IMG/VR virus record: IMGVR_UViG_3300005573_000995
Coordinates: 1 to 64,000 of that record
From: a virus
Strand: one strand, 5' to 3'
Length of the DNA: 64,000 nt
Below are positions 9,268 through 53,779 of this stretch, piece after piece. Positions within the stretch are counted from its first letter, which is position 1. Each line of letters starts with the position of its first letter. The notes under the pieces were generated by a model. The model was given only the letters and a program-made list of their open reading frames with translations, was not told where the DNA came from and did no database searches. Made by a program: the position numbers and the translations under genes.

Positions 9268-9500
9268 TTTTTGCAGATACGAGCAAAGAATATTGGAGGG
9301 ACTTTATAGTGAAAGCGATAGTAGTCGATTATTGCTTGCTGGTTCTCAACCGGTATTTCATAAATGTCCCAAATATTTGGTTCGTCCTTATGGTCTTTGT
9401 GAAAAGGTGAGACTAAATCATAACTTGAGTTCTTGAGCCATTTCTTTATAAGCTCCTGTGCATCTGCCGGTTTCTCTTCTTTCTTTTCTTCTGTCACCAA
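9216..9500 (-). CDS. Hypothetical protein (CxxC)
   Basis: ORF coupled to flanking genes. Confidence 0.6.
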   Translation of the reverse strand: MVTEEKKEEKPADAQELIKKWLKNSSYDLVSPFHKDHKDEPNIWDIYEIPVENQQAIIDYYRFHYKVPPIFFARICKKCWKKVETEGKIREDLK

Positions 9501-12442: not shown

Positions 12443-12456
12443 CTTATACCCATCTC

Positions 12457-40172: not shown

Positions 40173-42833
40173 TTGAGTAGCACAACCAATTGGTACTATG
40201 AGAAGCTAAAGAGAGACTTAGATAAAATAAAGAAGAAAAAGCTACAAGAAGAGGATAAAGAGCTTATTCCAGACGACATTATTGAATTTATAACCAAATT
40301 CCGAATTATTAGAGGAAGACCTTTTTTATTTGACTATGTAGACCCCAATACAGGGGTTGTTATTCCTCAAGCTAGAAAATATTTGTATGATATTTATAGA
40401 ACAGCAGTTAATCCTCAAGTTCACGATATTATTATCACAAAAGGCAGGCAAATGGAAATCTCCGAATTAGCCGTTAATGTTTTGCTTTATTTTGCTCTCA
40501 AATATCAAGACCGTCATCTAGTTTTACTTTATACTGCTCCTCGAGGAGACCAAGTCTCTCGCTTTTCCAATAGACGCTTGAGAATAGAAGCTATAAAACA
40601 GAGCAAGCTTATTCGAAAATATTTGACAGGTACTGATGCAACCGAGACAGTCCAGCTTGGCAACTGTACAACCTATTTATACTCTGCTTGGGGGGAATTT
40701 GATGCAGTAAGGAACATCGATGCGGATGTAGCAATCGTTGATGAAGCTCAAGATATTCAATCTTCTGCTTTCCCCGTTATTCGTGAAAATATGGCTCATA
40801 GTTGGTTAAAGAAGTTTATCGTGATTGGAACACCGAAAGAAGCTAATTCCCCATTTGAGAATCTGTGGAACATGAGTGATAGGAGAGAATGGGATAAAGA
40901 GACAGGGAAGTGGATAAAAACTGTATCAGAGCCAAGACCTTTTGTCGGTTTTCATGTTTCTCAAGAAATGGCTCCTTGGATTACAAAAGAAGAGCTTGAA
41001 GCAAAGAAGATGCATTATACTCAACAGCAATTCTATAACGAAGTGCTAGGGCTGTTCTATAAGGGATTGGGTAGGCCAATCACAATCGAAGACTTATTTG
41101 CTTGCACAAACAGAGATATTGGATTCCAATCATTTGCAGAAGATACTTATGCAGGGGTGGATTGGGGGTGTTATGATGAACAAACTAGAACACTCACTAA
41201 TAGAGGATTTAAATATTATTGGGAAATAACTTCGGACGATTTGATTGCTCAATTTGACCCACAAACAGAAGAAATGTCATTTGTAAAGCCCTTAAAGAAA
41301 ATAGTATTTCATCATCGGGGGAAAATGGTACGAATAAAGAATAAGCACCAAGATATGTTAATTACACCCGACCACAAATGCATATTTCGCAAAGAATGGC
41401 AAAAGAAATGGACCAAATGCGAAGCTCAAGACTTATTGTCTTTAGATGATATAATTTTACCCAGTAAGGCGCGATGGAAAGGTGAGAATAAAGAATACTT
41501 TATACTACCATCAACCATTCGCAAAGATTGGAACAGAATATATGAAGAAAAGAAAATTGATATGAAAGTGTGGTTAGAATTTCTCGGCTACTTTCTATCT
41601 GATGGATGTGTAGCCTTTAGAAACGCAGACCATCAGCATAGTAGAATGGTTCAGGTACAAATATGTCAAAGAAACGTACATCCTTACAAGGTTAATGCAA
41701 TAAGGAATGTTTTGAATAAGTTGCCCTTCAAGTATGGAACATATTTCTATGAAAAGTATGGGGATTATCAGTTCAAAATTGCAAACAAACAGTTATATGA
41801 GTGGTTGGCAAATCATTGTGGTGCTGATTCAAAGACGAAGCACATACCAAGGGAATTTCTCGAATTATCTCCTGAATATTTAAGAATACTCTTAGATTCT
41901 TTAATGTTAGGAGATGGATATTGGTCAAAAAATAAGACTGGGGGGACTTATTATACAATATCAAAGCAACTTGCGGATGATGTATTTGAACTAACTATTA
42001 AACTTGGTTTCAATTCTCACTTATCTTATAGCTCTGGTAAATATAGAATAAACTTCTCTTTGTTAGATAAAAAACGGCATATAAGGGGAAAGAATGATGT
42101 TGAAATTGTAGACTATGATGGAATGGCATATTGTTTCTCTGTTCCAACAGGTTTCTTTGTTACAGAGCGTAATGGGTATATAGCATTCCAAGGTAACACT
42201 TCAACCAAAGATAATGCTGATACTGTATACTGGTGTATAAAACCATTAGACGATGGTAAAATTCATACGGTCTTCATTTCCAAAATAGATACCCCAGATA
42301 TAATGGAGCAAGTTCGGTTTGTAGCGAAATACATAGACCGCTATGATAACAGAAGGGTGGTTGTCGATTGGGGCTTTGGGCATGTTCAAACGCAAGAGCT
42401 ACAAAAGATGTATGGGATGAGAGTCCTTCCTTGCGATTATAGTGGGAGTGAAATCAAACCAGTTGAAATCAAGCTCACACAAACAGGCACAAAGCTACAT
42501 CTGAACCGCACATTAGCAATAGATACCGTTTTCGACTTGATTAAGAAGAAGAACTTAGTTATCCCCGGTAAGAACAGAGAACTAACAGATTGGCTATATA
42601 AGAACTTTATGGTAATGTATCAAGAATCCGAAGTATCAACAACAGGGAAAAACATACGGCGATGGGTTAAGGACAAGGGAGAAGATGCCCATGATGACGC
42701 CGTTCATGCTCTCGTATATGCCTACTATGCTTATCAAACAGATAGAACCAGAAAAGCTATGGAACTTGGCGAAGGTCCTCCTCCTGTCTATTTCGTTCCT
42801 CATTCTGAAGAAGAGTTTGGGCTTCCTTTTTGA
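40173..42833 (+). CDS. terL: Terminase large subunit (GpA-like) with intein
   Basis: KGRQMEISE, IVDE, IGTP, GVDWG|intein, VVDWG, HDDAVHA. Confidence 0.88.
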   Translation: MSSTTNWYYEKLKRDLDKIKKKKLQEEDKELIPDDIIEFITKFRIIRGRPFLFDYVDPNTGVVIPQARKYLYDIYRTAVNPQVHDIIITKGRQMEISELAVNVLLYFALKYQDRHLVLLYTAPRGDQVSRFSNRRLRIEAIKQSKLIRKYLTGTDATETVQLGNCTTYLYSAWGEFDAVRNIDADVAIVDEAQDIQSSAFPVIRENMAHSWLKKFIVIGTPKEANSPFENLWNMSDRREWDKETGKWIKTVSEPRPFVGFHVSQEMAPWITKEELEAKKMHYTQQQFYNEVLGLFYKGLGRPITIEDLFACTNRDIGFQSFAEDTYAGVDWGCYDEQTRTLTNRGFKYYWEITSDDLIAQFDPQTEEMSFVKPLKKIVFHHRGKMVRIKNKHQDMLITPDHKCIFRKEWQKKWTKCEAQDLLSLDDIILPSKARWKGENKEYFILPSTIRKDWNRIYEEKKIDMKVWLEFLGYFLSDGCVAFRNADHQHSRMVQVQICQRNVHPYKVNAIRNVLNKLPFKYGTYFYEKYGDYQFKIANKQLYEWLANHCGADSKTKHIPREFLELSPEYLRILLDSLMLGDGYWSKNKTGGTYYTISKQLADDVFELTIKLGFNSHLSYSSGKYRINFSLLDKKRHIRGKNDVEIVDYDGMAYCFSVPTGFFVTERNGYIAFQGNTSTKDNADTVYWCIKPLDDGKIHTVFISKIDTPDIMEQVRFVAKYIDRYDNRRVVVDWGFGHVQTQELQKMYGMRVLPCDYSGSEIKPVEIKLTQTGTKLHLNRTLAIDTVFDLIKKKNLVIPGKNRELTDWLYKNFMVMYQESEVSTTGKNIRRWVKDKGEDAHDDAVHALVYAYYAYQTDRTRKAMELGEGPPPVYFVPHSEEEFGLPF
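41169..42197 (+). mobile_element. Intein (343 aa) in the terminase nuclease domain
   Basis: CYDEQT..TPDH..LGYFLSDG..LMLGDG..FQGN|T. Confidence 0.93.
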
Positions 42834-43232: not shown

Positions 43233-43496
43233 ATGAAGTTAGTTCAAATAATTGCTGTTTTTTCTATTCTTCTAATTGGCATCATTACTTTCGCTTCTCT
43301 ATGGGTGCTTCTATATTCAACTGTAAATCTATTCCAGTTCACATTAAGACCCAATGCAACTACTCCCTATGCTTATTCGTATGACATCATGATGCAAGGT
43401 ATGCAAGGCATTTTTAATCTTGCTTTCATTTTGCTGGTTTTAACGTTTGTTGTCTCGTCTCTGGTCTTGCTAATTGAAGCAAAAGCTGTTGGGTAA
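43233..43496 (+). CDS. Two-TM membrane protein
   Basis: Hydrophobic helices; GGTGA RBS. Confidence 0.65.
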   Translation: MKLVQIIAVFSILLIGIITFASLWVLLYSTVNLFQFTLRPNATTPYAYSYDIMMQGMQGIFNLAFILLVLTFVVSSLVLLIEAKAVG

Positions 43497-43559
43497 GAGG
43501 GCAGAACGTTCAAGCGTACTGTTATCTGCCTTATATATCGTTCAATACTTATTGAATCA

Positions 43560-43924
43560 TAAGCATTCTTTTTTTCTATATAAGATTTGAAATCGAATTA
43601 GAATTTTTGATTTGAAGAAAAGATGCTGAAAAATAGCTCAAATTGTTGCTATGATTTATGAGCAATCTTTGAATAAATTTCTCTAAAAATCTACGGAATT
43701 TTTCATAGGGATTTCTATCAAAAATGCTGAAAAAATGGCTGGAAATCCTTTCGGCAACTTTTTAAAATATATTTTCAAATTCTGCTGAATTTTATCGGCA
43801 ATTCTATAAGAAAATCTTTGGATTTTGCTTTAATTTTTTTCTCCAGATTTTTTCAAAATGCTGGAAAAAATTTTTGGCGAAATTTCAAACCGGAAAAATT
43901 TTTCCCGGGGGTACCTGCTTCCTC
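43560..43924. repeat. A/T-tract element, copy 1
   Basis: About 365 bp of A/T tracts ending TTTTCCCGGGGGTACCTGCTTCCTC. Confidence 0.8.
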
Positions 43925-44131
43925 TTCGAGCCTTTGTCGCTTGATTTGTTCTGCTCGTGCCAAAACGGCTTTTTTGTGGTCTTTATTGTCAATCAAGGGC
44001 TAAAAATGATAAAGTCCAAGCATCTTATAAAGTTTTATGATTGTTCTCAGGGATTATGATATATTATTTTCATAATATAGTATCGGTAGAGATTAAGGAG
44101 CGGGCAGGAACGGCAAACAAGGGTATTTTTA

Positions 44132-44313
44132 CAAATATTTGACAACCAAGGATGCCCGTTGCTCCTATAGGTAAGGGGCTTAAAATGAACAAATATTTGA
44201 AAAACACTGGTATCGTCGCTTTCCACTGCACTGCTGGTTCGTTGAACAAATATTTGGTTGCGCAGGACGTCGTTGGTGAGCATCGCAGTGGGCCGGTGTT
44301 AAACAAATATTTG
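44132..44313. repeat. CAAATATTTG cluster 1 (4 sites)
   Basis: 44132, 44190, 44247, 44304. Confidence 0.9.
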
Positions 44314-44367
44314 GGAACAAAATCCTTATTAACCCCTGCTCATATACTATTGGTGGGAAAGAGAAAA

Positions 44368-44571
44368 ATGTTAGTCTTCGCTTTCAGAGACGAGAAAGAA
44401 GCTAGTAAAGCCTGGGAAGTTCTTTTCATGGAGACAGAGAACCCATTATGGCTACGAAGATATGGCAATAAGATAATCGACGAGAACAATGATTCGCGGA
44501 CATATCGAAGCCGTCTAGTGAAGAGCCTTAAGGTAGCACTTCTCAACCCCAAGAAGGTGATGAAGACCTAA
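44368..44571 (+). CDS. Hypothetical protein (true start ATG 44368)
   Basis: TATA-like element and RBS upstream. Confidence 0.6.
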   Translation: MLVFAFRDEKEASKAWEVLFMETENPLWLRRYGNKIIDENNDSRTYRSRLVKSLKVALLNPKKVMKT

Positions 44572-44711
44572 TGGCTTCTCAAGCGCTATTTATCCAAATC
44601 TGTAAAAGATGCGGACATAAATGGTGGCCAAGAAGCCTACTCAAGCCAAAAGTATGCCCCAAATGTAAATCGCCATATTGGGACAGAGAACGGAAAAGAA
44701 TAGAGACCTAA
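44571..44711 (+). CDS. 46-aa zinc-ribbon protein
   Basis: Hand-translated: CKRCGHKWWPR..PKVCPKCKSPYWD. Confidence 0.75.
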   Translation: MASQALFIQICKRCGHKWWPRSLLKPKVCPKCKSPYWDRERKRIET

Positions 44712-44772
44712 AGTCTCCACTCTCTTTATTTTTGTTTTTATTTTTGAAAAAAGAAAGAAAAAAGCTTACGAT

Positions 44773-44883
44773 TTAGTATTCCTCTGACTTTACCTCATAT
44801 TCCTGTTTGTCAAAATCAAAAGAAATGACGGTAAAAAGCTTTTTCTTTTGATTTTGCGTATCCACGTTTTTGCTTTCGACCAA
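44773..44883 (-). CDS. 36-aa hypothetical protein
   Basis: TTG start with RBS and TTTAAATA upstream. Confidence 0.4.
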   Translation of the reverse strand: MVESKNVDTQNQKKKLFTVISFDFDKQEYEVKSEEY

Positions 44884-44947
44884 ATGCCTTTCCCTCGACA
44901 GATAGTTATACCCTACTCTATTTAAACGTATCGCTAGGTAACCCGCT

Positions 44948-45141
44948 TAAATGTTTGTTAGAGCACGCAGGACAGGAGATAGACGGTTCGCTTACAAATA
45001 TTTGTTCTAGACAACTGCTTAGTGCCGAACGGCAACGCTCTGGTGCAGGCAGTTGGATAAAACAAATATTTGAAAAAGCCTAACCTTGTCACAAAGCTTA
45101 CCAACGCTACTGGATTTGGTATCTATTAAATCAAACATTTG
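44948..45141. repeat. CAAATATTTG cluster 2 (2 exact, 2 variant sites)
   Basis: 44948 (variant), 44995, 45063, 45132 (variant). Confidence 0.85.
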
Positions 45142-45228
45142 TAAACACCCGGCCTCTAGGATATGCATCGGCTATCCATCGATAGCTTTATATACTATCA
45201 TACTATTATACTATGCGGGGATACAAAT

Positions 45229-45708
45229 ATGGTTGGTCGATTTCAAGTAATGGCAACACTCCAAGCAGCACGTGCGTATAAGCTAGGTCTTTCCCTAGAC
45301 TCAGCTTATTCGTGGGGTCTAGACCGTGCCCTATTCTATGCGGTAGCCAAAAGAGGCTTTAAGGGCAAAAGGCACTTTATCCCAAATGCGCAATCCGCTA
45401 AGGCACCAATCGGCGTTAAGCAACCTGTCGAAACTCCGAAGCCAAAATACAGCATGTTCTACCTAGGTGATGAAGGCGCATTCATGGATAACGATAAGGC
45501 TCTTTTCGTCTTCGGCGATAAAACTCTAACTCCGCAAGACTTTCAGAGGCAAATAATCAGTAGACTTAAAGACTTTCAGAGCGCCTGGAGTGAAGCCTTA
45601 AATATCGTCTCTCAGTACAGTAATGAGAAGCTTCTCTCATCAAAAGCCTTTTTTGAGGAAATCTACAAGCCTAGGAGAGACGAATTAGCCCTTAAGTGGC
45701 TACAGTAA
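45229..45708 (+). CDS. Hypothetical protein (GRFQVMATLQAARA motif)
   Basis: TATA at about 45186; T-rich terminator after the stop. Confidence 0.75.
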   Translation: MVGRFQVMATLQAARAYKLGLSLDSAYSWGLDRALFYAVAKRGFKGKRHFIPNAQSAKAPIGVKQPVETPKPKYSMFYLGDEGAFMDNDKALFVFGDKTLTPQDFQRQIISRLKDFQSAWSEALNIVSQYSNEKLLSSKAFFEEIYKPRRDELALKWLQ

Positions 45709-45732
45709 AAAATTTTTTCTTTTTTTTTCTTT

Positions 45733-46140
45733 TTAGCTTAAAGCCTCTAAGAGTTCGCTTTCTTTCAGTAGTGCAGCATGTAACCGCTCTCCATACATGA
45801 AAAGAAGGTAAAAGACACGATAATCGTGTTTAGTGGACCCACCATGAAACTCGATAACCGCGGGTAGAGAAGGCAAAATCTGATAGACAACGTTATCTAT
45901 CCTTTTTCGGTCTAAAAATTCACGTTCAAACTTATATTGCGGATGTAATCCCTTAATCTGTGCAGCCCAAGGCTTTCGTTGTGCCCATCCTCCTTCATTA
46001 CAGTAAACAAAATCTTCATGCTTAACGCAAAAGTCATTTCCGAATTTCAGAAACTCATAAGGTCGAGCATTAGCTAGCTTTTTCTCCACTAGCTTCTCTA
46101 TCCACGTCTTCGTTTCGACTGAAGTATTTTCTTGGCTCAT
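45733..46140 (-). CDS. Hypothetical protein
   Basis: RBS and TTTATATA upstream. Confidence 0.7.
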   Translation of the reverse strand: MSQENTSVETKTWIEKLVEKKLANARPYEFLKFGNDFCVKHEDFVYCNEGGWAQRKPWAAQIKGLHPQYKFEREFLDRKRIDNVVYQILPSLPAVIEFHGGSTKHDYRVFYLLFMYGERLHAALLKESELLEALS

Positions 46141-46245
46141 TTTTCCCTCATACATCTATATAACCGTGCTGTATATAAAGCTTGTGGAGTGTCCTTTATA
46201 AGCGATTGCAAGATTGCAATCCAGACGCTAAGCAAGGACAGTGTT

Positions 46246-46368
46246 CAAATATTTGTTTATGTACGACATCCCTTGGGGGGATAGAGGAGGGGGGCATAAA
46301 AACAAATATTTGATTTCTACCGAATTCCTCCTCGTCCGGCAAGCACGCCGGTACAAATCAAATATTTG
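46246..46368. repeat. CAAATATTTG cluster 3 (3 sites)
   Basis: 46246, 46303, 46359. Confidence 0.9.
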
Positions 46369-46448
46369 CGCAAAAAAGACCTACGGCAAGTTCTTCCTTG
46401 ACCAATAGCCTTAAATAACCCTCTTTACTTATAGGTAGTGGTGGGAAA

Positions 46449-47048
46449 ATGGGCTATACCCATTATTGGCGAAGACCGAAAGAAATAGACCGAAAGAGAT
46501 TTTCTCTAATCGTCAGAGACTTCAAAAGAGTAATGCCTACTCTCGAGCACTTGGGCATAAAGCTAGCTGATGGCTACGGGGAAAATAAACCTGTAGTCAA
46601 TATCCACCGCGTATGGTTCAACGGGCTAGCGAAATGCGGACATGAAAAGCATGACTATGGGATACCATGGCCAGCAGAGAACGCTAAAGGAGTAGTTCTT
46701 AGCGGAATGCCTAAAAACGAAGTTCTCGGAGGTATATGGTTTGCTGGGGCTTTACTGAACGCTAGAACATGTAATGGCGATTGCTCCCATGAAACTTTCA
46801 ATTTCCCTCGTCAAATGAATAGGAAAAACTCTCTCCTAATCAAGGACGGAGAAATGTTTTTCGATTGCTGCAAAACCGCTTATAAGCCCTATGACTTCGC
46901 GGTAAACGTCTTTCTAATCATAGCCAAGCACTACCTTAAAGACGATATCATAGTTACAAGTGACGGAACAATCGAACAATGGCAAGACGCTATCGATTTT
47001 GTCCAGAGATTTCTAGACTATGGGCAAGACTTTCAGCTAGCCAATTAA
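46449..47048 (+). CDS. Conserved hypothetical protein (MGYTHYW..CKT..KPYD type)
   Basis: MGYTHYW, HETF, CKTAYKPYD, SDG motifs recalled from phage/plasmid proteins. Confidence 0.75.
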   Translation: MGYTHYWRRPKEIDRKRFSLIVRDFKRVMPTLEHLGIKLADGYGENKPVVNIHRVWFNGLAKCGHEKHDYGIPWPAENAKGVVLSGMPKNEVLGGIWFAGALLNARTCNGDCSHETFNFPRQMNRKNSLLIKDGEMFFDCCKTAYKPYDFAVNVFLIIAKHYLKDDIIVTSDGTIEQWQDAIDFVQRFLDYGQDFQLAN

Positions 47049-47409
47049 AGCATGCTTTTTTTCTATTAAGAAAAAAATCGACCTTTAGATTTTTTGGAAA
47101 TTGACGATGCCTAATCGAAATTATCTACGGTTTTTATAGAATTTTCTTTCAAAAAGCCATTAGATTTTCAGCCAAAATGCTTAAAGTTTTGGCGATAATT
47201 TACTCTAAAATTTGCTGGGAATTTGCTTGCTTTTTGTTAGAAAATCTGGGCCATTTGCCGGGGAAATGTCAAGGAAAATTATCAAAAAAGCTGGGCAAAA
47301 TTCTGCGAAATTCGTCTCAAAATCTGCGCTCAAAATTTTGGGATTCGCGAAAAAATTTTTTTAAAAATTCTATGGGGGCAAAAATTTTCCCGGGGGTACC
47401 TGCTTCCTC
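47048..47409. repeat. A/T-tract element, copy 2
   Basis: Similar start (AAGCAT.CTTTTTTTCTAT) and identical 25-bp end as copy 1. Confidence 0.8.
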
Positions 47410-47828
47410 CGCTCTCTTTTCGTCTAAATAGTTTACATAGCGCTATATAGGATTGATAGAATAAAGGCTAGACCATACTGATAAGAAGACCTAATTACGG
47501 TCCTTATTGTTCGTGCCAATCCTTATCGCTACTTATAGTATATAGACCTATGTATTTAAACCTTTTGCCTATTTACTAATTCATGTTTTTCCTGGTCTTC
47601 TACTTATCCGTATTTATTCCAAATGTTTGATAAGGACAGTATTTATTCAAATATTTGTGACCTTAGTCTATATACTACCCTCCGAAACTATATAGACCTA
47701 CATAGGCCATCTAATGCCTATATATTCGTTCTTATCTCTATATAGAAGTTTAAACTTTTGCGCCAGGTTTAAACTCTTTAGGGTAAAGGTATATATACCC
47801 TAGGGGTATAATCTCAACCGTAAGAAAA

Positions 47829-47969
47829 ATGATAACCCAAAACCGAAACAGAAAGAATAACCTAGTTTACGAGGGCCGCTTTATGTGCTACGAATGTGGC
47901 ACGGTCTTCGTGAGTACTAGGTATTTGCATGCACATATAAAGAATGTGCATGTGCATAAGGAGGAGTGA
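47829..47969 (+). CDS. 46-aa C2H2 zinc-finger protein
   Basis: Hand-translated FMCYECGTVF..YLHAHIKNVH; TATA at about 47790. Confidence 0.7.
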   Translation: MITQNRNRKNNLVYEGRFMCYECGTVFVSTRYLHAHIKNVHVHKEE

Positions 47970-47975
47970 AAGACC

Positions 47976-48203
47976 ATGTCCGATGAGCTAGTTCTTATGC
48001 GAAAAGACCGTTTAGGTCCTGGACAGATGATGTACAAGTGTAGGGAATGCAGAGAGCACACAATACACAACTATGAGATAAGCATGCCATCATCTTATCA
48101 TCAGCATTATAGGATTACGCTAGACATTTACAAGTGTATCAATTGCGGAACCTTGAAGTATATTTCCCATAGAGAGGGTTATGTCGAGAGGTCCATGATG
48201 TAA
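47976..48203 (+). CDS. Small zinc-ribbon protein
   Basis: CREC..CINCG. Confidence 0.65.
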   Translation: MSDELVLMRKDRLGPGQMMYKCRECREHTIHNYEISMPSSYHQHYRITLDIYKCINCGTLKYISHREGYVERSMM

Positions 48204-48544
48204 TGATAACCGAAAAACAAAGGAAAAAAATCCTTCGGCAGCTAAAAACATATGTAGAAAAGGGTAGCCTATATAAGCTACACTACACTATTACTGTTCC
48301 GAAACCTTTCCTACACATTACTGCTAGTATACATATTTTTGAACAAGAAATTATAGAATTTGGCAAGGGAAGTTATCTAGATGGGATTGATATTTGGAAT
48401 TTGATCCATCTAGTCTTATATCTTCAAAGCCAAGGAATACAGGTAAATTGGATTAGGGTAGACGATAAGTTTGAGTATTATCCTAATCTTCACATATCGC
48501 TAACCCTAGATCACATGCTAGTGGATCATATATTGGAGGAATAA
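48203..48544 (+). CDS. Hypothetical protein
   Basis: Translationally coupled ORF. Confidence 0.6.
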   Translation: MITEKQRKKILRQLKTYVEKGSLYKLHYTITVPKPFLHITASIHIFEQEIIEFGKGSYLDGIDIWNLIHLVLYLQSQGIQVNWIRVDDKFEYYPNLHISLTLDHMLVDHILEE

Positions 48545-48656
48545 AGGAATTGGACGAAAGAGATCAAACCGCCATAAGTGAAGCCATGGGAATATGGCTT
48601 CAGTTAGTCCTGAAAGAATTAGCACTAGTTGCTTATGAAGGGGGAGCACTAGGAAA

Positions 48657-49094
48657 TTGACCTTAAGCATTACGATAATAAGCTATAGGCTTCCATCATA
48701 TCAACGCAAGATGATGGAAACTAATCCTGAACTTAAGGCCAACATAAAAAAGGCCTATAACAAGGCATGGGCAAAACTGTCCGAATTAGGTCCTCATCTA
48801 GGGACCTCTCAAATTGTTAGTTTTGTCAATCCTAGCGTAATAAGGGAAAGGCTAGAAGGGATTAAAGTTAAGCTTGATCTCGATAAGCCTTTTGCTGTCT
48901 TTCATGTCTTAACTACAGAGGAATTGCCATCATGGATACCCTTTTTGGAGACCACAATAAGCGAAAAGCTTGAAATAGTCAAAAATAAGAATAGTTATAG
49001 AAGTAGGACCGAATATGCCAAGCTACATAATGCACTAGAAGATTTGGAAACGATCAAAAGCGAATTAGCAAATAAGGCTTTAGAGGTGATTTAG
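48657..49094 (+). CDS. Hypothetical protein
   Basis: ORF upstream of AAA ATPase. Confidence 0.6.
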   Translation: MTLSITIISYRLPSYQRKMMETNPELKANIKKAYNKAWAKLSELGPHLGTSQIVSFVNPSVIRERLEGIKVKLDLDKPFAVFHVLTTEELPSWIPFLETTISEKLEIVKNKNSYRSRTEYAKLHNALEDLETIKSELANKALEVI

Positions 49095-49096
49095 TT

Positions 49097-50179
49097 TTGA
49101 ACATTCCTCAAGTTTCCCCCAACCAGCTTATGAAAATTTTAGAAATAGCGCATAAAACTAAAACTGCTGTCCTAATAGTAGGACGCTACGGAGTCGGAAA
49201 GACCTCAATCCCATATCAATACGCTAATGATAACAGATTTTACCTCGAGGACCTAAAGCTAAGTCAATTTGATGCGATAAGCTTGAGAGGTCCTCCGGAG
49301 ACCGAAATAAAAGACGGTATAAAAATAACGACTTGGCCTATAGGAGACATGTTTTATAGACTTTCACAACATAAAGAAGGGGCCGTTTTGCTATTGGATG
49401 AATTCGATAAAGCGACCCCTTCAGTAGCTAGCGCTAGTTATGAGCTATTACTTCAGAGACGTTATGGTAATTTTGTTTTAGCAGATAACGTTTTGATTGT
49501 AGCTACAAGTAATTTAGAATCTGAAGATTTTAGGAGTGAGGGATTTAGTATCCCTCAATTGGACCGTCTGTTAAAAGTAGAGCTAGCTTATCAGCTTGAG
49601 GATTGGCTAGCTTATGCGAAAAACAAGGGAATAGACAGTAGAATTATAGAGTTTATAAGCACTAATCCCTCTCGCTTATGGAGAGAAGGACAACCTGAAA
49701 GTTTTACTACTACTTCACCTAGAGGATGGGAAAGATTAAGCCATCTACTTCAAAACGTTAATAATTTGGATGTTGAGCTAATCGAGACGCTAGCAGGGGC
49801 CCTAGTAGGGTCCGATATCGCTAGCGAATTTATTGAATTCATTAATGAGGTATCATGGCAAAAGATTTACATTAACAACGATATGCAGAAGCTTAAAAAC
49901 CTTGATTTAGCAGCTAGAAAACTAGTAATAAAACAAGCTGCCCAAGATGTTGCTAGTGATATTGTGAAATCGCATAATGCTGCTTATAATCTGAAACTAA
50001 CGTTTATAACGAATTATTGCCTAGATTATGATGATCTTGAATTTGCTGTTTTGTTTTTCAGAGGCCTGAAGCTAAATCTCGACAGTTTTGATGATTTTAT
50101 TAGGTCCTATAGCTGGCCAAGAAAAACGGAATTATTGACAAAAATAACTGCCTTCAGTAAAAATGGAGGCAGTTCCTAA
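49097..50179 (+). CDS. MoxR-like AAA+ ATPase (second copy)
   Basis: GRYGVGKT, LLLDE, ATSN, LDR, SPRGW. Confidence 0.88.
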   Translation: MNIPQVSPNQLMKILEIAHKTKTAVLIVGRYGVGKTSIPYQYANDNRFYLEDLKLSQFDAISLRGPPETEIKDGIKITTWPIGDMFYRLSQHKEGAVLLLDEFDKATPSVASASYELLLQRRYGNFVLADNVLIVATSNLESEDFRSEGFSIPQLDRLLKVELAYQLEDWLAYAKNKGIDSRIIEFISTNPSRLWREGQPESFTTTSPRGWERLSHLLQNVNNLDVELIETLAGALVGSDIASEFIEFINEVSWQKIYINNDMQKLKNLDLAARKLVIKQAAQDVASDIVKSHNAAYNLKLTFITNYCLDYDDLEFAVLFFRGLKLNLDSFDDFIRSYSWPRKTELLTKITAFSKNGGSS

Positions 50180-51525
50180 TGAATTACGAAAAAATTATAA
50201 ATGATGCGCTTATACTAATCCGCAATAAATCAAGGATATCCTTCAGCATATTAAAAAATTTTGACTTTAAGGCTTCTAGTGAAATAAATACTTTTGCTGT
50301 AGATGAACAAAACTTAACAATTTACTACAGCCCTAAATTTATTGAGGAAATTTTAAGCAATAAGAAATATACGCTATTCACAATAAGCTCTATAATTGAA
50401 CATGAATTATGCCATGTGCTTGGAGAGGATTATTTAAGAGCTAAACTTCTTCAAAAAAATAACATACCTATTATTCTTGATGTTTGGAATTGGTCTTGTG
50501 ATGCTATAATTAATTCGGACCTTATAGCTCACGGTTGGAGCCTGACGGAAAACTGTGTATACCCAGATTTTAGAGCTATAGGCTTCGACCGTGTCCCTCC
50601 TAAAGAAGTACTTTACGAAAGAATTTTAAGAGATTATTATAACGAAGGAGACCAAGGGGACCAAGACCAAGATCAAGACCAAGACCAAGATCAAGACCAA
50701 GACCAAGATCAAGACCAAGACCAAGATCAAGACCAAGACCAAGATCAAGACCAAGAAGGAGGACAATCCGCCAAGGCTAAAGCTAAAGTAAATGTTAAGG
50801 GTTGTCAAGGACAGCAAACAATAGAGGATCCCAAAGATTTTGAAAAAAGCGTTGAAAAGGCTAGTGCTGATATAGCTCAAAAAATCGAAAAATCATTACA
50901 AAACATAGATAATAAAGACATTAGTGAAGATACGCCACAAGCAGTTAAGATATTTGCCCAAAATATCTTAAAACGCTTAAGAATTCCATTTAGCGCTAAA
51001 CTGTCTAGGGTTATCTCTACCCATCTAGGAGATTCGGAAAATTGGACAAGACCTCATATAATTAGTAGTGCTGTAGGCAAGAAATTGCCTAGTTATAACA
51101 AGGAATTGCCTAAAATCGCTATAATCTTTGATGTTTCAGGTTCAATAGATACTGAAGAGGCACAAAACTTTTTGAATTTAGCTAGTAAATATATTAGAGC
51201 ACATAGAGAATCAGAGATTTACGTAATAACTTGCGATGATGCTGTCCAATTCTTTAAGAAAATTCACAATTTACAAGAAATACCGTTAGAGGGACGAGGC
51301 TCCACAGATTTTAGGCCACCATTCGAATTGATCAAGGAAAAACACTTAAACCCAGACCTAATTTTATACTTTACGGATTTGCGAGGGATATTTCCTTCTT
51401 ATCGAAAAATTCCTCAACTATATTGGATTGTTGAGGAAAAGAAGTACAATTCTCTCAACGAAGGATATAGATCTGAAGCCATTCGATTAGGGAAAGTTAT
51501 TACCTACAGAGAGGATGAGCTATAA
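50179..51525 (+). CDS. DUF2201-like metallopeptidase plus VWA protein with DQ repeat
   Basis: HELCH, DVSGS, GRGSTDFRP, YFTD. Confidence 0.88.
   Translation: MNYEKIINDALILIRNKSRISFSILKNFDFKASSEINTFAVDEQNLTIYYSPKFIEEILSNKKYTLFTISSIIEHELCHVLGEDYLRAKLLQKNNIPIILDVWNWSCDAIINSDLIAHGWSLTENCVYPDFRAIGFDRVPPKEVLYERILRDYYNEGDQGDQDQDQDQDQDQDQDQDQDQDQDQDQDQDQDQEGGQSAKAKAKVNVKGCQGQQTIEDPKDFEKSVEKASADIAQKIEKSLQNIDNKDISEDTPQAVKIFAQNILKRLRIPFSAKLSRVISTHLGDSENWTRPHIISSAVGKKLPSYNKELPKIAIIFDVSGSIDTEEAQNFLNLASKYIRAHRESEIYVITCDDAVQFFKKIHNLQEIPLEGRGSTDFRPPFELIKEKHLNPDLILYFTDLRGIFPSYRKIPQLYWIVEEKKYNSLNEGYRSEAIRLGKVITYREDEL
50659..50754 (+). repeat. 18-bp tandem repeat GACCAAGACCAAGATCAA encoding (DQ)n
   Basis: About 5.3 perfect units. 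Confidence 0.95.
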
Positions 51526-51651
51526 ATGATGGACAGTTTAGCCTACTTTTTCGACAGCCTAGCTAAACTGATAATCGAAATACTAAAAATTACGATAATT
51601 AGCGCAATAGCGTATATAATTTTAGCTTATGTCTTAAGGAGAGGCTCCTAA

Positions 51652-51885
51652 ATGAATAAGAAGACACAAAAGAAGATAAGGAAAACTGATAAAGAGCTAG
51701 AGGAAAACATGGAAATAGTCACCTTATCATGGGACCAAATACTAAATCTTGCGAAAGAACTAGAATCTCACAAAAAGAGAGATGAATTTTTAAGGCTATT
51801 TGAAGATAACAGAAAATTGCTAATTACCTATAAGGCTCGATGGGATTGTGATGTTATTTTGGGAGAATTGATAAGAATTGAGTAA
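51652..51885 (+). CDS. Hypothetical protein
   Basis: ORF with RBS. Confidence 0.55.
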   Translation: MNKKTQKKIRKTDKELEENMEIVTLSWDQILNLAKELESHKKRDEFLRLFEDNRKLLITYKARWDCDVILGELIRIE

Positions 51886-52075
51886 AACAGCAAAATATCG
51901 CATTACCCTTAAAGACCAGAATGGTCACGAAATTACTCAAACAATTTGGTTAACTAGTGAACAATTCGATGAACTTGATAAGGCATTGCGCATTTTAAAC
52001 AACATACTTGGCCTTAAATGTGATATTTTATATAATGATTGGATATGGATAATATAAAGGAGGTGAGATAAAAAA

Positions 52076-52348
52076 TTGAAAGACCAAAACAAAAACGATA
52101 AGAACATGGCAATACCTAAAGGCTTTTTTAAGGTCTTAAAATTACAGATGTGCCCTGAATGCAGATCCTCAAAATGGCAAATAACTAGCCCATTCCCTGC
52201 CGGATATCTTTCCCATGCAGCTACTATATGGGTTAATTGCAAAAAATGTGGAAGACTTGAAGCCTTCGGATGGCAAATGTGTAAAATATGTAAAATTCAT
52301 GTCTTCCGACTAGATAAAACAAAAGGCTGGAGACAGGAATTAGGCTAG
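52076..52348 (+). CDS. Cys-rich hypothetical protein
   Basis: CPEC..CKKC..CKIC; GGAGGTGA RBS. Confidence 0.6.
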   Translation: MKDQNKNDKNMAIPKGFFKVLKLQMCPECRSSKWQITSPFPAGYLSHAATIWVNCKKCGRLEAFGWQMCKICKIHVFRLDKTKGWRQELG

Positions 52349-52586
52349 TACTTTTTTCTAGCTTCTTTCCCCGTTTTTCTATTTTCCCGAAATACTAGCG
52401 CGAGATAAGCGGATTTTATGCCTAGGAAAAGGCTTTTTTAGTAGGAATTATAGGGATTAAGGGTAGGCTATTCATGATATACCTAGGGATACCCATTACC
52501 CTATACCCTACCCATTAGCCATTACCCATTACCTAAACTGCTTAATGGAAAAGGCTCCTACCTAGATTGATTAACCCTTAAGGTCA

Positions 52587-52810
52587 CAAATATTTGTTAA
52601 AAATTAACGTTTTGAGGGGACCACTGGATATCGGATTTTTTACAAATATTTGTAGCGGTTTAAGGGTTTGAAGGGTTAGCAAGCAGTTTAAAACCCTACA
52701 AATATTTGATAACCTACTCTACCTAGGATATAGTTAGCTCACTTATTGCGTTATAGATGCAATAAAGACCTATACCGTGTCCTAGATGTTGAAAGGTTTA
52801 CAAATATTTG
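52587..52810. repeat. CAAATATTTG cluster (4 sites)
   Basis: 52587, 52643, 52699, 52801. Confidence 0.9.
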
Positions 52811-53090
52811 ATAACCTAGTCTTGCTGGTTTTGATGGCCTGTCCTTGTTGGTCTTGATAACCGATTACCCTAATCTAGCATTTTGATTTAGACATCAGAT
52901 ATAGGGTTATAGATGGGATAGTATAACTTGTATTAGCGCTCTACTGGCAATTCTTTCCTCCCGTCAAAAAGGCTATATATAGCGGGCTAACAGATGGACG
53001 GGAGTTATAGATATGTATAATCTCGGTTATCCTTCTTGCTACCAGTAAAGCTTATATATAGAGATAACAAAGGCTTATAGAAGAGAAGGC

Positions 53091-53270
53091 ATGGGACAAA
53101 ATAACAAATCTCATTATCATGTTACCGTAATGTGTCGGGAATGTGGGAAGTTATTTGACCTTCTGAAGTATTGGGATTACTGTCCATACTGTCATATCGC
53201 CATCCCCTTCTCAGTAGTCGAAGTTACTGCAAGAGATATGAATACCGGACAGCAGATAATGCTTAAATAA
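53091..53270 (+). CDS. 59-aa zinc-ribbon protein
   Basis: Hand-translated CRECG..CPYC; TATA at about 53052. Confidence 0.6.
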   Translation: MGQNNKSHYHVTVMCRECGKLFDLLKYWDYCPYCHIAIPFSVVEVTARDMNTGQQIMLK

Positions 53271-53302
53271 TGGACTATATATACGATTAATGTAGATATA
53301 GA

Positions 53303-53779
53303 ATGAACAGAAAGGAACTCGCTATAACAGCTTTAATGACTACTCTTTATGTCGTCTTAGTTCAATCTCTTGGTCCTCTATCCTTTATGCAAATACAGGT
53401 TAGAATAGCGAATGCTCTAATAGGTGTAGTGCCAGTAGTGGGTGAACCGGCAGTGATTGGTCTTACGCTAGGTGTATTAATAGGAAATATCAACAGTCCT
53501 CTGGGCTTTATTGACCTTCTCTCGTTTATCCCTTCCCTTTTTGGAATGATAATAGTTCTCAAGACTAAAGGAAAGATGGTAATGGTAGGGCTATCGGTCT
53601 ATAGTCTATTACTTTCAGCTTGGGTAGCTTTTATGCTAAACATGATATTTGGAGTTCCATATCTTATAACATTTCTCTATGTGCTTGGAGGAATGATTAT
53701 ATCTACTGTCGTCCTAGGCTATCTGGTATATATTGGCTTAAAGAAAAGAATGAGAAGCTATGAGAGTAGCAAAAATTGA
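53303..53779 (+). CDS. queT: QueT-family queuosine precursor transporter
   Basis: LYVVL..PLSF..IQVRIA.AL, GLTLG..N..SPLG..D; about 5 TM helices. Confidence 0.8.
   Translation: MNRKELAITALMTTLYVVLVQSLGPLSFMQIQVRIANALIGVVPVVGEPAVIGLTLGVLIGNINSPLGFIDLLSFIPSLFGMIIVLKTKGKMVMVGLSVYSLLLSAWVAFMLNMIFGVPYLITFLYVLGGMIISTVVLGYLVYIGLKKRMRSYESSKN

What the first reader, a model, noticed from the sequence alone, without database searches (positions are those of the whole stretch)
44132..52810. Arrays of a 10-bp palindrome (CAAATATTTG) with ~57-bp period and unique spacers, at divergent promoters
Seen: 14 exact sites (44132, 44190, 44247, 44304; 44995, 45063; 46246, 46303, 46359; 47648; 52587, 52643, 52699, 52801) and 3 variants (44948, 45132, 47620) in five intergenic clusters; I noticed only about 3 elsewhere. 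Spacings are 56-58 seven times, plus 47, 68 and 69 (about 4.5, 5.5 and 6.5 helical turns); 28 and 102 are exceptions. Spacers are unrelated and often GC-rich. Inference: a dimeric protein binds alternate helix faces to build a nucleoprotein structure (operator array, partition site or injection/packaging signal). A processed guide-RNA array is a less likely alternative.
Basis: partly seen in the sequence, partly recalled or inferred. Interest (0 to 1): 0.8.

Follow-up and report, generated by a model that had tools for sequence, protein, structure and literature searches.

The report
Phased palindrome arrays upstream of viral promoters
An archaeal-type tailed virus from a hot spring carries one exact 10-letter palindrome in evenly spaced rows in front of five groups of accessory genes, most likely docking sites for an unidentified paired DNA-binding protein.

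Summary
CAAATATTTG occurs 18 times in the 86,876-base virus record, against 0.24-1.07 expected. Fifteen sites lie in the 9.6% of the record that is non-coding. Fourteen exact sites and three variants form five clusters at the stated coordinates.

Spacers are 46-48 nt in seven intervals and unrelated in sequence, unlike every public array with this pattern; those are all ordinary tandem repeats.

New findings:
- The arrays lie upstream of, or between divergent, TATA-N19-22-G-rich core promoters, so flanking promoters should not transcribe them.
- Spacings cluster at half-integral helical turns (47, 56-58, 68-69 bp).
- Inner flanks of consecutive sites are Watson-Crick complementary, with no strand bias.
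- One such pair, a perfect 18-bp inverted repeat, brackets a 4.9-kb block holding all 16 GATC sites of the record.

Best reading (about 0.45): phased operator arrays for an unidentified dimeric DNA-binding protein that co-regulates accessory transcription units. These may also mark cassette joints, as in the PeSL elements of T4-type phages. An RNA-hairpin array is less likely, and CRISPR/TIGR-like guide arrays are unlikely.

No binding protein, RNA data or close relative was found. Earlier notes of this scan describe palindrome-jointed cassettes and palindromic docking sites in other archaeal viruses.

The parts
44132..44313 (.). Cluster 1: four exact CAAATATTTG sites (44132, 44190, 44247, 44304), spacings 58/57/57. 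The last site ends 11 bp before the TATA-like box at 44325.
44948..45141 (.). Cluster 2: two exact sites (44995, 45063) flanked by variants at 44948 (2 mismatches) and 45132 (1 mismatch), spacings 47/68/69. It lies between a minus-strand promoter-like element (TATA 44926, G-box 44896) and the plus-strand promoter at 45187.
46246..46368 (.). Cluster 3: three exact sites (46246, 46303, 46359), spacings 57/56. It lies between the divergent promoters at 46179 (minus) and 46410 (plus).
47620..47665 (.). Cluster 4: variant 47620 plus exact site 47648 (spacing 28). Site 47648 with its 8-nt right flank is the left arm of a perfect 18-bp inverted repeat.
   Evidence: (I9)
52579..52810 (.). Cluster 5: four exact sites (52587, 52643, 52699, 52801), spacings 56/56/102. 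52579-52596 is the right arm of the 18-bp inverted repeat. Sites 52699 and 52801 share both flanks as a 35-nt direct repeat (83%).
   Evidence: I9, D6
47666..52578 (+). 4.9-kb gene block between the two arms of the 18-bp inverted repeat: zinc-finger genes, a MoxR-type AAA ATPase at 49097-50179, and a metallopeptidase-VWA gene at 50179-51525. It holds all 16 GATC sites of the record (48403-52164) and is read as a foreign cassette inserted between two palindrome sites.
44325..44711 (+). Transcription unit behind cluster 1: TATA-like 44325, G-rich box 44352, a 67-aa ORFan (44368-44571) and an overlapping 46-aa zinc-ribbon gene (44571-44711). These are candidate but unproven binders.
45187..45708 (+). 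Transcription unit behind cluster 2: TATA 45187, G-box 45215, 159-aa gene 45229-45708. The protein is a widespread hypothetical protein, about 50% identical to proteins from bacterial and archaeal metagenome bins.
45733..46179 (-). Minus-strand unit leaving cluster 3: TATA 46179, G-box 46149, gene 45733-46140 (135 aa from the second ATG).
46410..47048 (+). Plus-strand unit behind cluster 3: TATA 46410, G-box 46440, 199-aa gene 46449-47048. The only homologues found sit in otherwise unrelated viral contigs.
9370..9379 (.). Solitary exact site in the 226-bp gap upstream of the minus-strand gene 7150-9267.

Best explanation
CAAATATTTG is the recognition site of a two-fold symmetric, sequence-specific DNA-binding protein. 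The protein is not identified and could be viral or host-encoded.

Rows of two to four sites sit in the five longest intergenic gaps of the record. Each site is embedded in about 4 A/T-rich bases on either side. Neighbours are spaced by a whole number of helical turns plus about a half (47, 56-58, 68-69 bp). The rows lie upstream of the TATA-N19-22-G-rich core promoters of five accessory transcription units.

Inferred mechanism: dimers bound on alternating faces of the helix interact along the row and cover 120-230 bp of upstream DNA. This places all five units under one switch, for silencing or timing. In cluster 1 the promoter-proximal site ends 11 bp before the TATA-like box, where it could block or recruit TBP/TFB.

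Shown: the sites, their excess, their location relative to promoter-like elements, the phasing, and the flank complementarity. Inferred: protein binding, cooperativity and the regulatory outcome.

The Watson-Crick complementary inner flanks of neighbouring sites are read as a DNA-level trace of how the rows were built or are kept. Possible routes are inverted duplication or template switching between neighbouring palindromes. The same sites also bound at least one horizontally acquired gene block.
For: Excess: 18 copies against 0.24-1.07 expected; the next 10-mer palindrome has 4 copies.

Location: 15 of 18 sites lie in the 9.6% non-coding DNA (p = 3.6e-13), and the clusters occupy the five longest true intergenic gaps.

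Promoters: four of the six plus-strand elements in 43400-53400 whose box starts are named in the full report, and two of the three on the minus strand, match TATA-like 8-mer, N19-22, G-rich box. Four of these six have an ATG 3-10 nt further on. Every array lies upstream of these, and clusters 2 and 3 lie between divergent ones, so the flanking promoters transcribe away from the arrays.

Phasing: R = 0.75 at 10.5 bp per turn, mean 0.47 turn, p = 5e-4 for 12 spacings, p = 0.016 with the 56-58 class counted once. 47 and 68-69 differ from 57 by about one turn.

Flanks: A/T in 21-25 of 28 outward positions +1 to +4, with a G+C-richer centre. There is no longer palindrome; own-flank symmetry is 2.5 of 10.

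Pairing: flank complementarity shows no strand bias or G-U signature in the best stems, which fits DNA rather than RNA.

Population: a minor strain in one metagenome run keeps site 52587 unchanged while 12 substitutions and 3 indels fall within 33 bases upstream and 3 substitutions within 8 bases downstream.

Precedent: in unrelated IMG/VR contigs the same palindrome occurs in pairs 62-65 bp apart. In 14 of 21 such loci a homologue of an XRE-type HTH gene lies in the locus. In 13 of them it starts about 30 bases downstream of the second site; in L181 it lies on the opposite strand, just before the first site of the pair.
Against: No binder was found.
- Pfam or PHROG scans of 39 window proteins gave only zinc fingers or ribbons and one weak HTH (33007-34086).
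- Six-frame scans of the record found no RHH_1, HTH_3, AbrB/MazE or histone fold. The HTH_24 scan gave one sub-threshold match, at 33049-33159. The record is only about 76% complete.
- The 67-aa ORFan behind cluster 1 has no homologue, and its low-confidence model shows no significant structural match of any kind.

The sites are unusually exact for operators: 14 exact against 2 one-mismatch copies in 43500-53300.

Protein binding does not explain why the inner flanks of consecutive sites are complementary (mean 5.0 of 10 against 2.9; permutation p = 5e-5).

Distances from the last site to the TATA box vary (21, 31, 51, 55, 76 bp), so there is no fixed operator-promoter geometry.

Two of 12 spacings (28, 102) fall off the common phase.

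A promoter-like element at 44072/44100 points into cluster 1, so that array may be transcribed.

No relative carries comparable arrays (0 of 26 terminase-relative loci), so conservation is untested.
Confidence: 0.45

Rival explanations
1. Cassette joints. The palindrome with its hairpin-like flanks is the junction of self-contained promoter-gene-terminator units in a plastic accessory region. Recombination at or between the sites gains, loses or flips units, as with the promoter-early stem-loops (PeSLs) of T4-type phages. The 47-nt units are empty or collapsed joints. This reading is compatible with the operator reading.
For: Each cluster heads one transcription unit that ends in T-runs.

The genes between clusters have mixed origins:
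- a 159-aa protein about 50% identical to proteins of bacterial and archaeal bins;
- a 199-aa gene shared only with otherwise unrelated viral contigs;
- a MoxR/VWA pair only 31% and 26% identical to the resident pair.

The block 47666-52578 is bounded by a perfect 18-bp inverted repeat made of the palindrome plus 8 nt. It holds all 16 GATC sites of a record that otherwise has none, against about 302 expected from base composition over the whole record.

Consecutive sites have complementary inner flanks whether 46 nt or 4.9 kb apart.

PeSL features were read in PMC2839356 (abstract and section 13). Earlier notes of this scan report palindrome-jointed cassettes in other archaeal viruses. These are leads only.
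Against: The palindrome is not part of the core promoter here.

No tyrosine integrase or serine resolvase is in the record.

No relative is available to show exchange at the sites.

The GATC island (48403-52164) starts 737 bp inside the left boundary and ends 414 bp inside the right one, so its ends need not be the palindromes.

Ten bases is short for homologous recombination.

Joints do not explain the half-turn phasing.
Confidence: 0.25
2. Structured RNA array. The clusters are transcribed, and each unit folds into a hairpin whose base is formed by two neighbouring palindromes. The hairpins act as processing sites, as attenuators using alternative pairings of 3-4 equivalent segments, or as small RNAs.
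For: Inner flanks of adjacent sites pair: 6 of 12 adjacent pairs score 6 or more of 10, against 8 of 260 other pairs. 8 of 16 consecutive pairs fall in the best 11% of the non-adjacent energy distribution.

Spacers of clusters 1-3 are G+C-richer than the genome.

Some spacers fold well on their own: z = -4.1 for 44995-45063 and z = -5.0 for 52699-52801.

A promoter-like element (TATA 44072, G-box 44100) points into cluster 1.
Against: Clusters 2 and 3 lie between divergent promoters that transcribe away from them.

Runs of five or six T stand inside or at the edge of arrays on both strands. That such runs stop archaeal RNA polymerase is recalled knowledge.

The best stems are equally stable on both strands, with few G-U pairs.

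6 of 11 spacers have z above -1 on the plus strand, and cluster 1 shows little adjacent pairing.

Rfam gave only one sub-threshold microRNA-family match, outside the arrays (29.6 bits against a gathering score of 72.9). No tRNA was found.

Spacing steps of about one DNA turn have no RNA rationale.

No RNA run is listed. That is no evidence either way.
Confidence: 0.15
3. Replication origin, partition (centromere-like) or packaging/injection landmark: the rows are iterons bound by an initiator, a ParB-like protein or the small terminase.
For: Cluster 1 begins 1.3 kb after the large-terminase gene. Clusters 1 and 4 each follow, by about 210-240 bp, a duplicated A/T-tract element that ends in an identical 25-bp core. 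Regular rows of dyad sites are typical of such landmarks; this is recalled knowledge.
Against: Five separate rows are spread over 8.7 kb, each in front of its own promoter, which is unlike a single origin or pac site.

The spacers are not conserved.

No ParA/ParB, initiator or small terminase was recognised next to the rows; the 178-aa gene before the terminase has no family match.

The GC skew of the window turns near 18-20 kb, not here.
Confidence: 0.1
4. Guide-RNA array of CRISPR or TIGR type, or a relic tandem repeat without present function.
For: The layout is short exact repeats with unique spacers of near-constant length. Some left flanks in cluster 1 and both flanks of sites 52699 and 52801 are direct repeats, which hints at growth by tandem duplication (D6, D7).
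Against: Only 10 bases are conserved.

Spacers match nothing elsewhere in the genome beyond chance: best E = 0.022 for 14 nt.

No Nop-domain protein is in the record, and no cas-like family appeared among the 39 window proteins scanned.

A pure relic would not keep 14 sites exact while the spacers drift to 15-43% identity.
Confidence: 0.05

Closest known systems
Regularly spaced palindromic operator boxes of archaeal Lrp-type regulators (for example the three boxes of Ss-LrpB in its own control region; recalled, not read here), and global operator sets such as the KorB sites of plasmid RK2 (recalled)
   Same: Short dyad-symmetric sites repeated in upstream control regions. The spacing is tied to the helical repeat, and one protein is presumed to control several promoters.
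   Different: The period here is about 5.5 turns, so neighbours face opposite sides. Sites are exact rather than degenerate. Spacers carry inverted-repeat ends. No Lrp-type or other regulator was identified; only a weak HTH_24 match was found at 33049-33159.
PeSLs (promoter-early stem-loops), the mobile regulatory cassettes of T4-type phages (PMC2839356; abstract and section 13 read)
   Same: Repeated intergenic motifs with stem-loops, concentrated in a plastic region in front of ORFans and accessory genes. They are associated with gain and loss of gene modules.
   Different: A PeSL contains the promoter itself plus one terminator hairpin. Here the conserved word is outside the core promoter and occurs in phased rows of two to four. 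Exchange at the sites is not shown, because no relatives were found.
Intergenic repeats of halovirus HF2 (PMC8707807; abstract and matched passages read)
   Same: Archaeal tailed virus with repeated elements of 56-58 bp in intergenic DNA of the early/middle region, tied to transcription units.
   Different: HF2 repeats are single, conserved along their whole length, and carry the TATA box and start site. Here only 10 of about 57 bases are conserved, and the units stand in tandem upstream of separate promoters.
Operator pairs with the same word in unrelated IMG/VR contigs
   Same: CAAATATTTG occurs in pairs 62-65 bp apart. In 14 of 21 loci a homologue of an XRE-type HTH gene lies in the locus. 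In 13 of them it starts about 30 bases downstream of the second site; in L181 it lies on the opposite strand, just before the first site of the pair. In L132 the spacer holds a bacterial-type TTGACA-N17-TATAAT promoter.
   Different: These are bacterial-type promoters and contigs with 50-57% G+C that share no proteins with this virus. There are pairs only, spaced at about 6.0 turns (in phase). This is a convergent use of the word, not homology.
CRISPR and TIGR guide arrays
   Same: Short repeats alternate with unique spacers of constant length.
   Different: The repeat is only 10 bases. No cas or Nop-domain gene was found. Spacers have no targets in the genome. The arrays lie in promoter-upstream DNA.

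Membership tests
Operator array of a dimeric transcription regulator | Dyad-symmetric site, statistically over-represented | tested here: met
   Perfect 10-bp palindrome; 18 copies against 0.24-1.07 expected
Operator array of a dimeric transcription regulator | Sites lie in promoter regions | tested here: met
   15 of 18 sites are non-coding. The arrays lie 11-90 bp upstream of TATA-like boxes and between divergent promoters. Promoters are predicted, not mapped.
Operator array of a dimeric transcription regulator | Spacing tied to the DNA helical repeat | tested here: met
   R = 0.75, p = 5e-4, or p = 0.016 with the main class collapsed; 10 of 12 spacings fall at 0.33-0.57 turn
Operator array of a dimeric transcription regulator | A cognate DNA-binding protein | tested here: inconclusive
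   No RHH_1, HTH_3, AbrB or histone match. There is a weak wHTH and several zinc fingers. The record is about 76% complete, and the host is unknown.
PeSL-type mobile regulatory cassette | The repeated motif contains the promoter | tested here: not met
   The core promoters (TATA-N19-22-G box) lie outside the palindrome. Only 3-4 of 14 sites have a G-rich box at promoter distance (and reading).
PeSL-type mobile regulatory cassette | Stem-loop associated with the motif | tested here: met
   Complementary inner flanks of consecutive sites
PeSL-type mobile regulatory cassette | Related genomes differ by exchanges at the motifs | not testable with these tools
Integron / attC cassette array | Adjacent tyrosine-recombinase integrase | tested here: not met
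   PF00589 has no match at E <= 1 in the record. Caveat: the record is about 76% complete.
CRISPR array | Repeats of about 23-50 bp (recalled range) conserved along their length | tested here: not met
   Only 10 bases plus a preferred A at -1 are conserved
CRISPR array | cas genes nearby | tested here: inconclusive
   No cas family appeared among the 39 window proteins scanned. No dedicated cas search was run.
   PF01798 has no match at E <= 1 in the record. Caveat: the record is incomplete.
Ordinary tandem repeat | Units alike along their whole length | tested here: not met
   Consecutive spacers here are 15-43% identical. In public arrays with the same pattern they are mostly 60-100% identical.
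Rfam RNA families | Match to a curated covariance model | tested here: not met
   The only match is a sub-threshold microRNA family at 47143-47243, outside the arrays

The most novel reading that the evidence does not exclude
The palindrome, together with the short inverted repeats it nucleates, is the working joint of a cassette-capture and shuffling system of archaeal tailed viruses that does not use an integrase.

Gene blocks are inserted between two copies. The 4.9-kb GATC-bearing block, bracketed by a perfect 18-bp inverted repeat, would be one such insertion. The 57-bp rows are stacks of empty joints kept in helical register by the protein that binds them. The same sites would thus serve both regulation and genome plasticity.

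A virus-encoded structure-specific nuclease could supply the chemistry. Candidates are the ERCC4 nuclease at 31564-32316 or the Spo11/Topo VI-A-like protein noted by another reader at 15681-17285.
Probability: 0.2. Interest if true: 0.8.

Novelty: new variant of a known kind. Interest (0 to 1): 0.6.

Why it matters
Gene regulation in viruses of non-halophilic, non-Sulfolobus archaea is almost unexplored. Here one exact 10-base word marks five accessory transcription units of a hot-spring archaeal virus. That gives a clean handle for finding the regulator, for example by DNA pull-down with a 57-bp unit.

The half-turn phasing with hairpin-symmetric spacers is an arrangement I found described neither in the papers read nor in the search listing.

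The link to an inserted, compositionally foreign gene block suggests that regulation and gene shuffling share the same sites. Other notes of this scan point the same way in marine archaeal viruses. If that holds, it would describe a general way in which archaeal tailed viruses build their accessory regions.

Tried and rejected
Searches for the same arrays elsewhere.
- The three-site pattern gave 28 IMG/VR loci, 33 JGI metagenome loci and 1 GTDB genome locus.
- Spacer identity was tabulated for the 33 metagenome loci, and L001, L002, L009 and L067 were read. All looked like ordinary tandem repeats or coding repeats. The other 25 IMG/VR loci were judged only from their site spacing.
Of the 91 new loci, 50 were not tandem repeats. 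Only one of the 54 loci searched by tblastn shares a protein with this virus: a sugar-epimerase-like gene, 28% identity.
- The 21-nt GC core of the duplicated element gave 0 matches in IMG/VR.
- Megablast of 43800-53300 against the phage collection gave no match.

Relatives by protein.
- The terminase, whole or N-extein, gave no IMG/VR relative by single-sequence search.
- A profile of 17 sequences gave 26 loci at 24-40% identity, none with phased palindrome rows. L111 has five copies of another AT-rich palindrome that looks like a TATA box. L121 holds a coding repeat.
- The nearest named phages are Bacillus and Geobacillus phages, at 29-35% identity in the terminase.
- Homologues of the 199-aa gene lie in contigs that share nothing else with this virus.

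RNA.
- No RNA holder is listed for the stretch.
- The two DNA runs, kept as contigs, show no listed variant inside clusters 1-4; 25 substitution rows and 10 indel rows were not shown.
- Rfam and ARAGORN gave nothing.
- Whole-cluster folds have low z-scores, but the palindromes pair with each other by construction, so I gave them no weight.

Binder.
- PDB sequence searches with three neighbouring proteins gave nothing below E = 0.25.
- The model of the 67-aa ORFan (pLDDT 66) gave only weak Pcc1/DCoH-like rows, best E = 0.069.
- The 159-aa model (pLDDT 85.8) gave no Foldseek match and a best Z of 4.6.

Rejected ideas.
- The palindrome as a TATA box: only 3-4 of 14 sites have a G-rich box at the right distance.
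- A longer palindromic operator: own-flank symmetry is 2.5 of 10.
- Spacers as self-targeting guides.
- C/D-box or H/ACA RNAs: no boxes seen on reading the spacers; no tool test was run.
- A fixed phase between the last site and the TATA box: five distances, hand-computed R of about 0.58, not significant.
- Positioning of archaeal histone tetramers at about 60 bp: an idea only. No histone gene is in the record.

Supplementary files of the papers were not consulted.

Full report
What the DNA is. The window is the first 64 kb of a single 86,876-base virus record, classed as linear and about 76% complete. Two hot-spring metagenome runs hold the stretch as DNA. The record encodes a large terminase, a portal, a family-B DNA polymerase and a DNA methylase, each interrupted by an intein. 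It also encodes an archaeal-type primase with a PriX domain, an ERCC4 nuclease and an RNA-ligase-like protein. Genes are preceded by TATA-like boxes rather than -35/-10 elements. I therefore read it as an archaeal tailed virus.

The observation.
- The window has 17 exact copies against 0.20 expected from shuffles, with 0 of 100 shuffles reaching 17.
- The record has 18 copies, against 0.24-1.07 under Markov orders 1-5. The next most frequent 10-mer palindrome has four copies.
- Outside the clusters, four copies remain against 0.3-0.55 expected. One of them (9370) is again intergenic.
- 15 of 18 copies lie in the 9.6% of the record that I scored as non-coding (p = 3.6e-13). The five clusters occupy the five longest true intergenic gaps. 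The 768-base 'gap' at 11689-12456 in that list is an artefact of my ORF choice.
- Within 43500-53300 there are 14 exact copies but only two one-mismatch copies. The word is kept unusually exact.
- Only an A at -1 (11 of 14 sites) and about four A/T-rich positions on each side extend the motif.

Spacers. Seven intervals are 46-48 nt. Consecutive spacers are 15-43% identical. Public arrays that match the three-site pattern differ: consecutive spacers were mostly 60-100% identical in the 33 JGI loci tabulated, and the IMG/VR and GTDB loci I read (L001, L002, L009, L067) were repeats of a whole unit. The layout of exact short palindromes with unique spacers was therefore found nowhere else. The tools may leave out the window's own record and near-identical ones. 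Spacers have no significant match elsewhere in the genome.

Where the arrays sit. Four genes of the region share one architecture: a TATA-like 8-mer, 19-22 bases, a G-rich box (GGTGGG, GCGGGG or GAGGG), then ATG 3-10 bases later. Their box starts are 44325/44352, 45187/45215 and 46410/46440 on the plus strand and 46179/46149 on the minus strand. Two further elements of the same build have no ORF behind them: 44926/44896 on the minus strand and 44072/44100 on the plus strand.
- Cluster 1 ends 11 bp before the box at 44325.
- Cluster 2 lies between the divergent elements at 44926 and 45187.
- Cluster 3 lies between the divergent promoters at 46179 and 46410.
- Clusters 4 and 5 lie upstream of stretches with several TATA-like boxes.

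Each cluster thus heads a transcription unit, and for clusters 2 and 3 the neighbouring promoters point away from the array. These promoters are predictions from sequence, not mapped starts.

Phasing. The 12 spacings give a resultant length of 0.75 at 10.5 bp per turn, with a mean phase of 0.47 turn. The p-value is 5e-4 against random spacings of 20-110 bp, and 0.016 if the seven 56-58 values count once. The values 47 and 68-69 differ from 57 by about one turn. 28 and 102 are off-phase. This supports a constraint acting on duplex DNA, with neighbours on opposite faces.

An unexpected feature. The right flank of each site is complementary to the left flank of the next site.
- The mean is 5.0 of 10 positions for 12 adjacent pairs, against 2.9 for 260 other pairs (permutation p = 5e-5). 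A site's own two flanks are not symmetric (2.5 of 10).
- Allowing bulges, 8 of 16 consecutive pairs fall within the best 11% of the non-adjacent distribution.
- The best stems are equally stable on both strands and hold few G-U pairs. Spacers folded alone give mixed z-scores, from -5.0 to +1.8. Cluster 1 shows little of this pairing.

So the symmetry is of the Watson-Crick, DNA type. It is real, but it does not look like a conserved RNA fold. Protein binding alone does not explain it. I consider three causes: inverted duplication or template switching between neighbouring palindromes, cruciform potential, or selection on a hairpin. I cannot choose among them.

The strongest such pair is not adjacent. 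Site 47648 plus 8 nt and 8 nt plus site 52587 form a perfect 18-bp inverted repeat 4.9 kb apart (I9).
- The block between them holds all 16 GATC sites of the record (48403-52164). The record as a whole would be expected to have about 302 from base composition, and it has none elsewhere.
- CTAG and GGCC are also enriched in the block.
- Its MoxR and VWA genes are only 31% and 26% identical to the resident pair at 35189-37440.

I read this as a foreign block inserted between two sites that were once neighbours, so clusters 4 and 5 may have been one row. The island does not reach the palindromes themselves, so the exact ends of the insertion are open.

Search for the binder. Pfam or PHROG scans of 39 window proteins found only zinc fingers or ribbons near the arrays (44571-44711, 47829-47969, 47976-48203) and a weak HTH in the 359-aa protein at 33007-34086. 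Six-frame scans found no RHH_1, HTH_3, AbrB/MazE, histone, resolvase, tyrosine integrase or Nop domain. The 67-aa ORFan behind cluster 1 has no homologue in two very large protein sets, and its model is of low confidence. The 159-aa protein is a widespread hypothetical protein with a confident model but no clear fold match. No binder can be named. About a quarter of the genome is missing, and the host is unknown.

Relatives. No close relative was found by DNA or protein. A terminase profile brought 26 loci at 24-40% identity, none with phased dyad rows within 10 kb. Conservation of the spacing is therefore untested rather than refuted.

The two-site pattern did turn up a convergent precedent. 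In contigs with 50-57% G+C that share no protein with this virus, the same word occurs in pairs 62-65 bp apart. In 14 of 21 such loci a homologue of an XRE-type HTH gene lies in the locus, and in 13 of them it starts about 30 bases downstream of the second site; in L181 it lies on the opposite strand, just before the first site of the pair. In L132 a bacterial-type TTGACA-N17-TATAAT promoter sits in the spacer. Its HTH_3 score is 22.7 bits against a cut-off of 23. This shows only that the word is used as an operator-type site elsewhere.

Population data. Contigs of the two runs show no listed variant inside clusters 1-4. A minor strain in run X2 keeps site 52587 while both its flanks differ. 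This fits selection on the word itself.

Weighing.
- The operator-array reading best fits the location, the dyad symmetry, the phasing and the exact conservation. I give it 0.45.
- The cassette-joint reading (0.25) explains the inverted-repeat flanks and the foreign block, and it can coexist with the first. It resembles the PeSLs of T4-type phages (PMC2839356; abstract and section 13 read), although here the word is not the promoter. The HF2 intergenic repeats (PMC8707807; abstract and matched passages read) are whole conserved promoter units and differ in kind.
- The RNA-hairpin reading (0.15) is weakened by the divergent promoters, the T-runs, the lack of strand bias and the turn-sized spacing steps.
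- Origin, partition or packaging (0.10) and guide arrays or relic repeats (0.05) have little support.

Earlier notes of this scan describe palindrome-jointed gene cassettes and genome-wide palindromic docking sites in other archaeal viruses. I treat them as leads that agree with, but do not support, the present reading.

Verdict. This is a real and statistically strong feature with an unusual geometry: exact 10-bp dyads, a period of about 5.5 turns, and unique spacers with inverted-repeat ends. It most likely consists of phased protein-docking rows that control accessory genes, and it may also mark where gene blocks are exchanged. It is a new variant of a known kind. The mechanism remains inferred.

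Noticed in passing
window 48403-52164 (whole record for the count): GATC occurs 16 times in the 86,876-base record, all within this 3.8-kb stretch. About 302 would be expected from base composition. CTAG (46 against 12.8) and GGCC (11 against 2.0) are also enriched in 47666-52578. Other readers noted the island. Its MoxR and VWA genes are only 31% and 26% identical to the pair at 35189-37440.
   Followed up: partly
window 44325-44368, 45187-45229, 46410-46449, 46179-46140: A shared core-promoter build: TATA-like 8-mer, 19-22 bases, a G-rich box (GGTGGG, GCGGGG or GAGGG), then ATG 3-10 bases later. The G-rich box may be the start-site region rather than a ribosome-binding site.
   Followed up: partly
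window 44712-44926, minus strand: A promoter-like element (TATA 44926, G-box 44896) has no ORF behind it. Downstream on that strand, at about 44806-44850, a 14-nt inverted repeat (AAAATCAAAAGAAA / TTTCTTTTGATTTT) is visible. This may be a small non-coding RNA divergent from cluster 2.
   Followed up: no
window 43540-43924 and 47025-47409: Two A/T-tract-rich elements end in an identical 25-base GC-rich core. Only the first ~45 and last ~60 bases align well (D2, 96). Each is followed 210-240 bp later by a palindrome cluster. Other readers noted them. The 21-nt core has no exact match in IMG/VR.
   Followed up: partly
window 45229-45708: A 159-aa protein with 333 homologues at E <= 0.001 (about 50% identity among those listed), named by their sources as WOR-3 bacteria, Hodarchaeota, Conexivisphaerales and others. 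It has no Pfam family. The AlphaFold model is confident (pLDDT 85.8) but has no Foldseek match in the PDB and a best VIA Z of 4.6.
   Followed up: partly
L132, L146, L162, L167, L173, L177, L178, L179, L181, L198, L205, L209, L212, L216: Unrelated IMG/VR contigs (50-57% G+C) carry CAAATATTTG in pairs 62-65 bp apart. A homologue of an XRE-type HTH gene lies next to the pair, about 30 bases downstream of the second site in 13 loci and on the opposite strand in L181. In L179 it is followed by a protein with an HExxH motif, which looks like an immunity-region operator pair.
   Followed up: partly
L111:2790-3239 and 9591-9628: A terminase relative with 58% G+C has five copies of TAGTATACT(A/T), at spacings of 53, 387 and 28 bases. 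They are AT-rich islands just before small ORFs and are probably TATA boxes.
   Followed up: partly
window 52554-52603: A minor contig of run X2 (depth 22.5 of 56.1) differs at many positions on both sides of site 52587 but not within it. This points to a second strain with other flanking DNA.
   Followed up: no
window 40173-42833, 58160-62545, 24499-27690, 12457-15687: Inteins with LAGLIDADG domains interrupt the terminase, portal, DNA polymerase B and DNA methylase genes.
   Followed up: no
window 52699-52810: The 102-bp interval is itself a long hairpin-type inverted repeat with an inner 10-bp stem (z = -5.0 on both strands). Its two bounding sites share both flanks as a 35-nt direct repeat (D6), so it looks like a duplicated unit.
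   Followed up: partly
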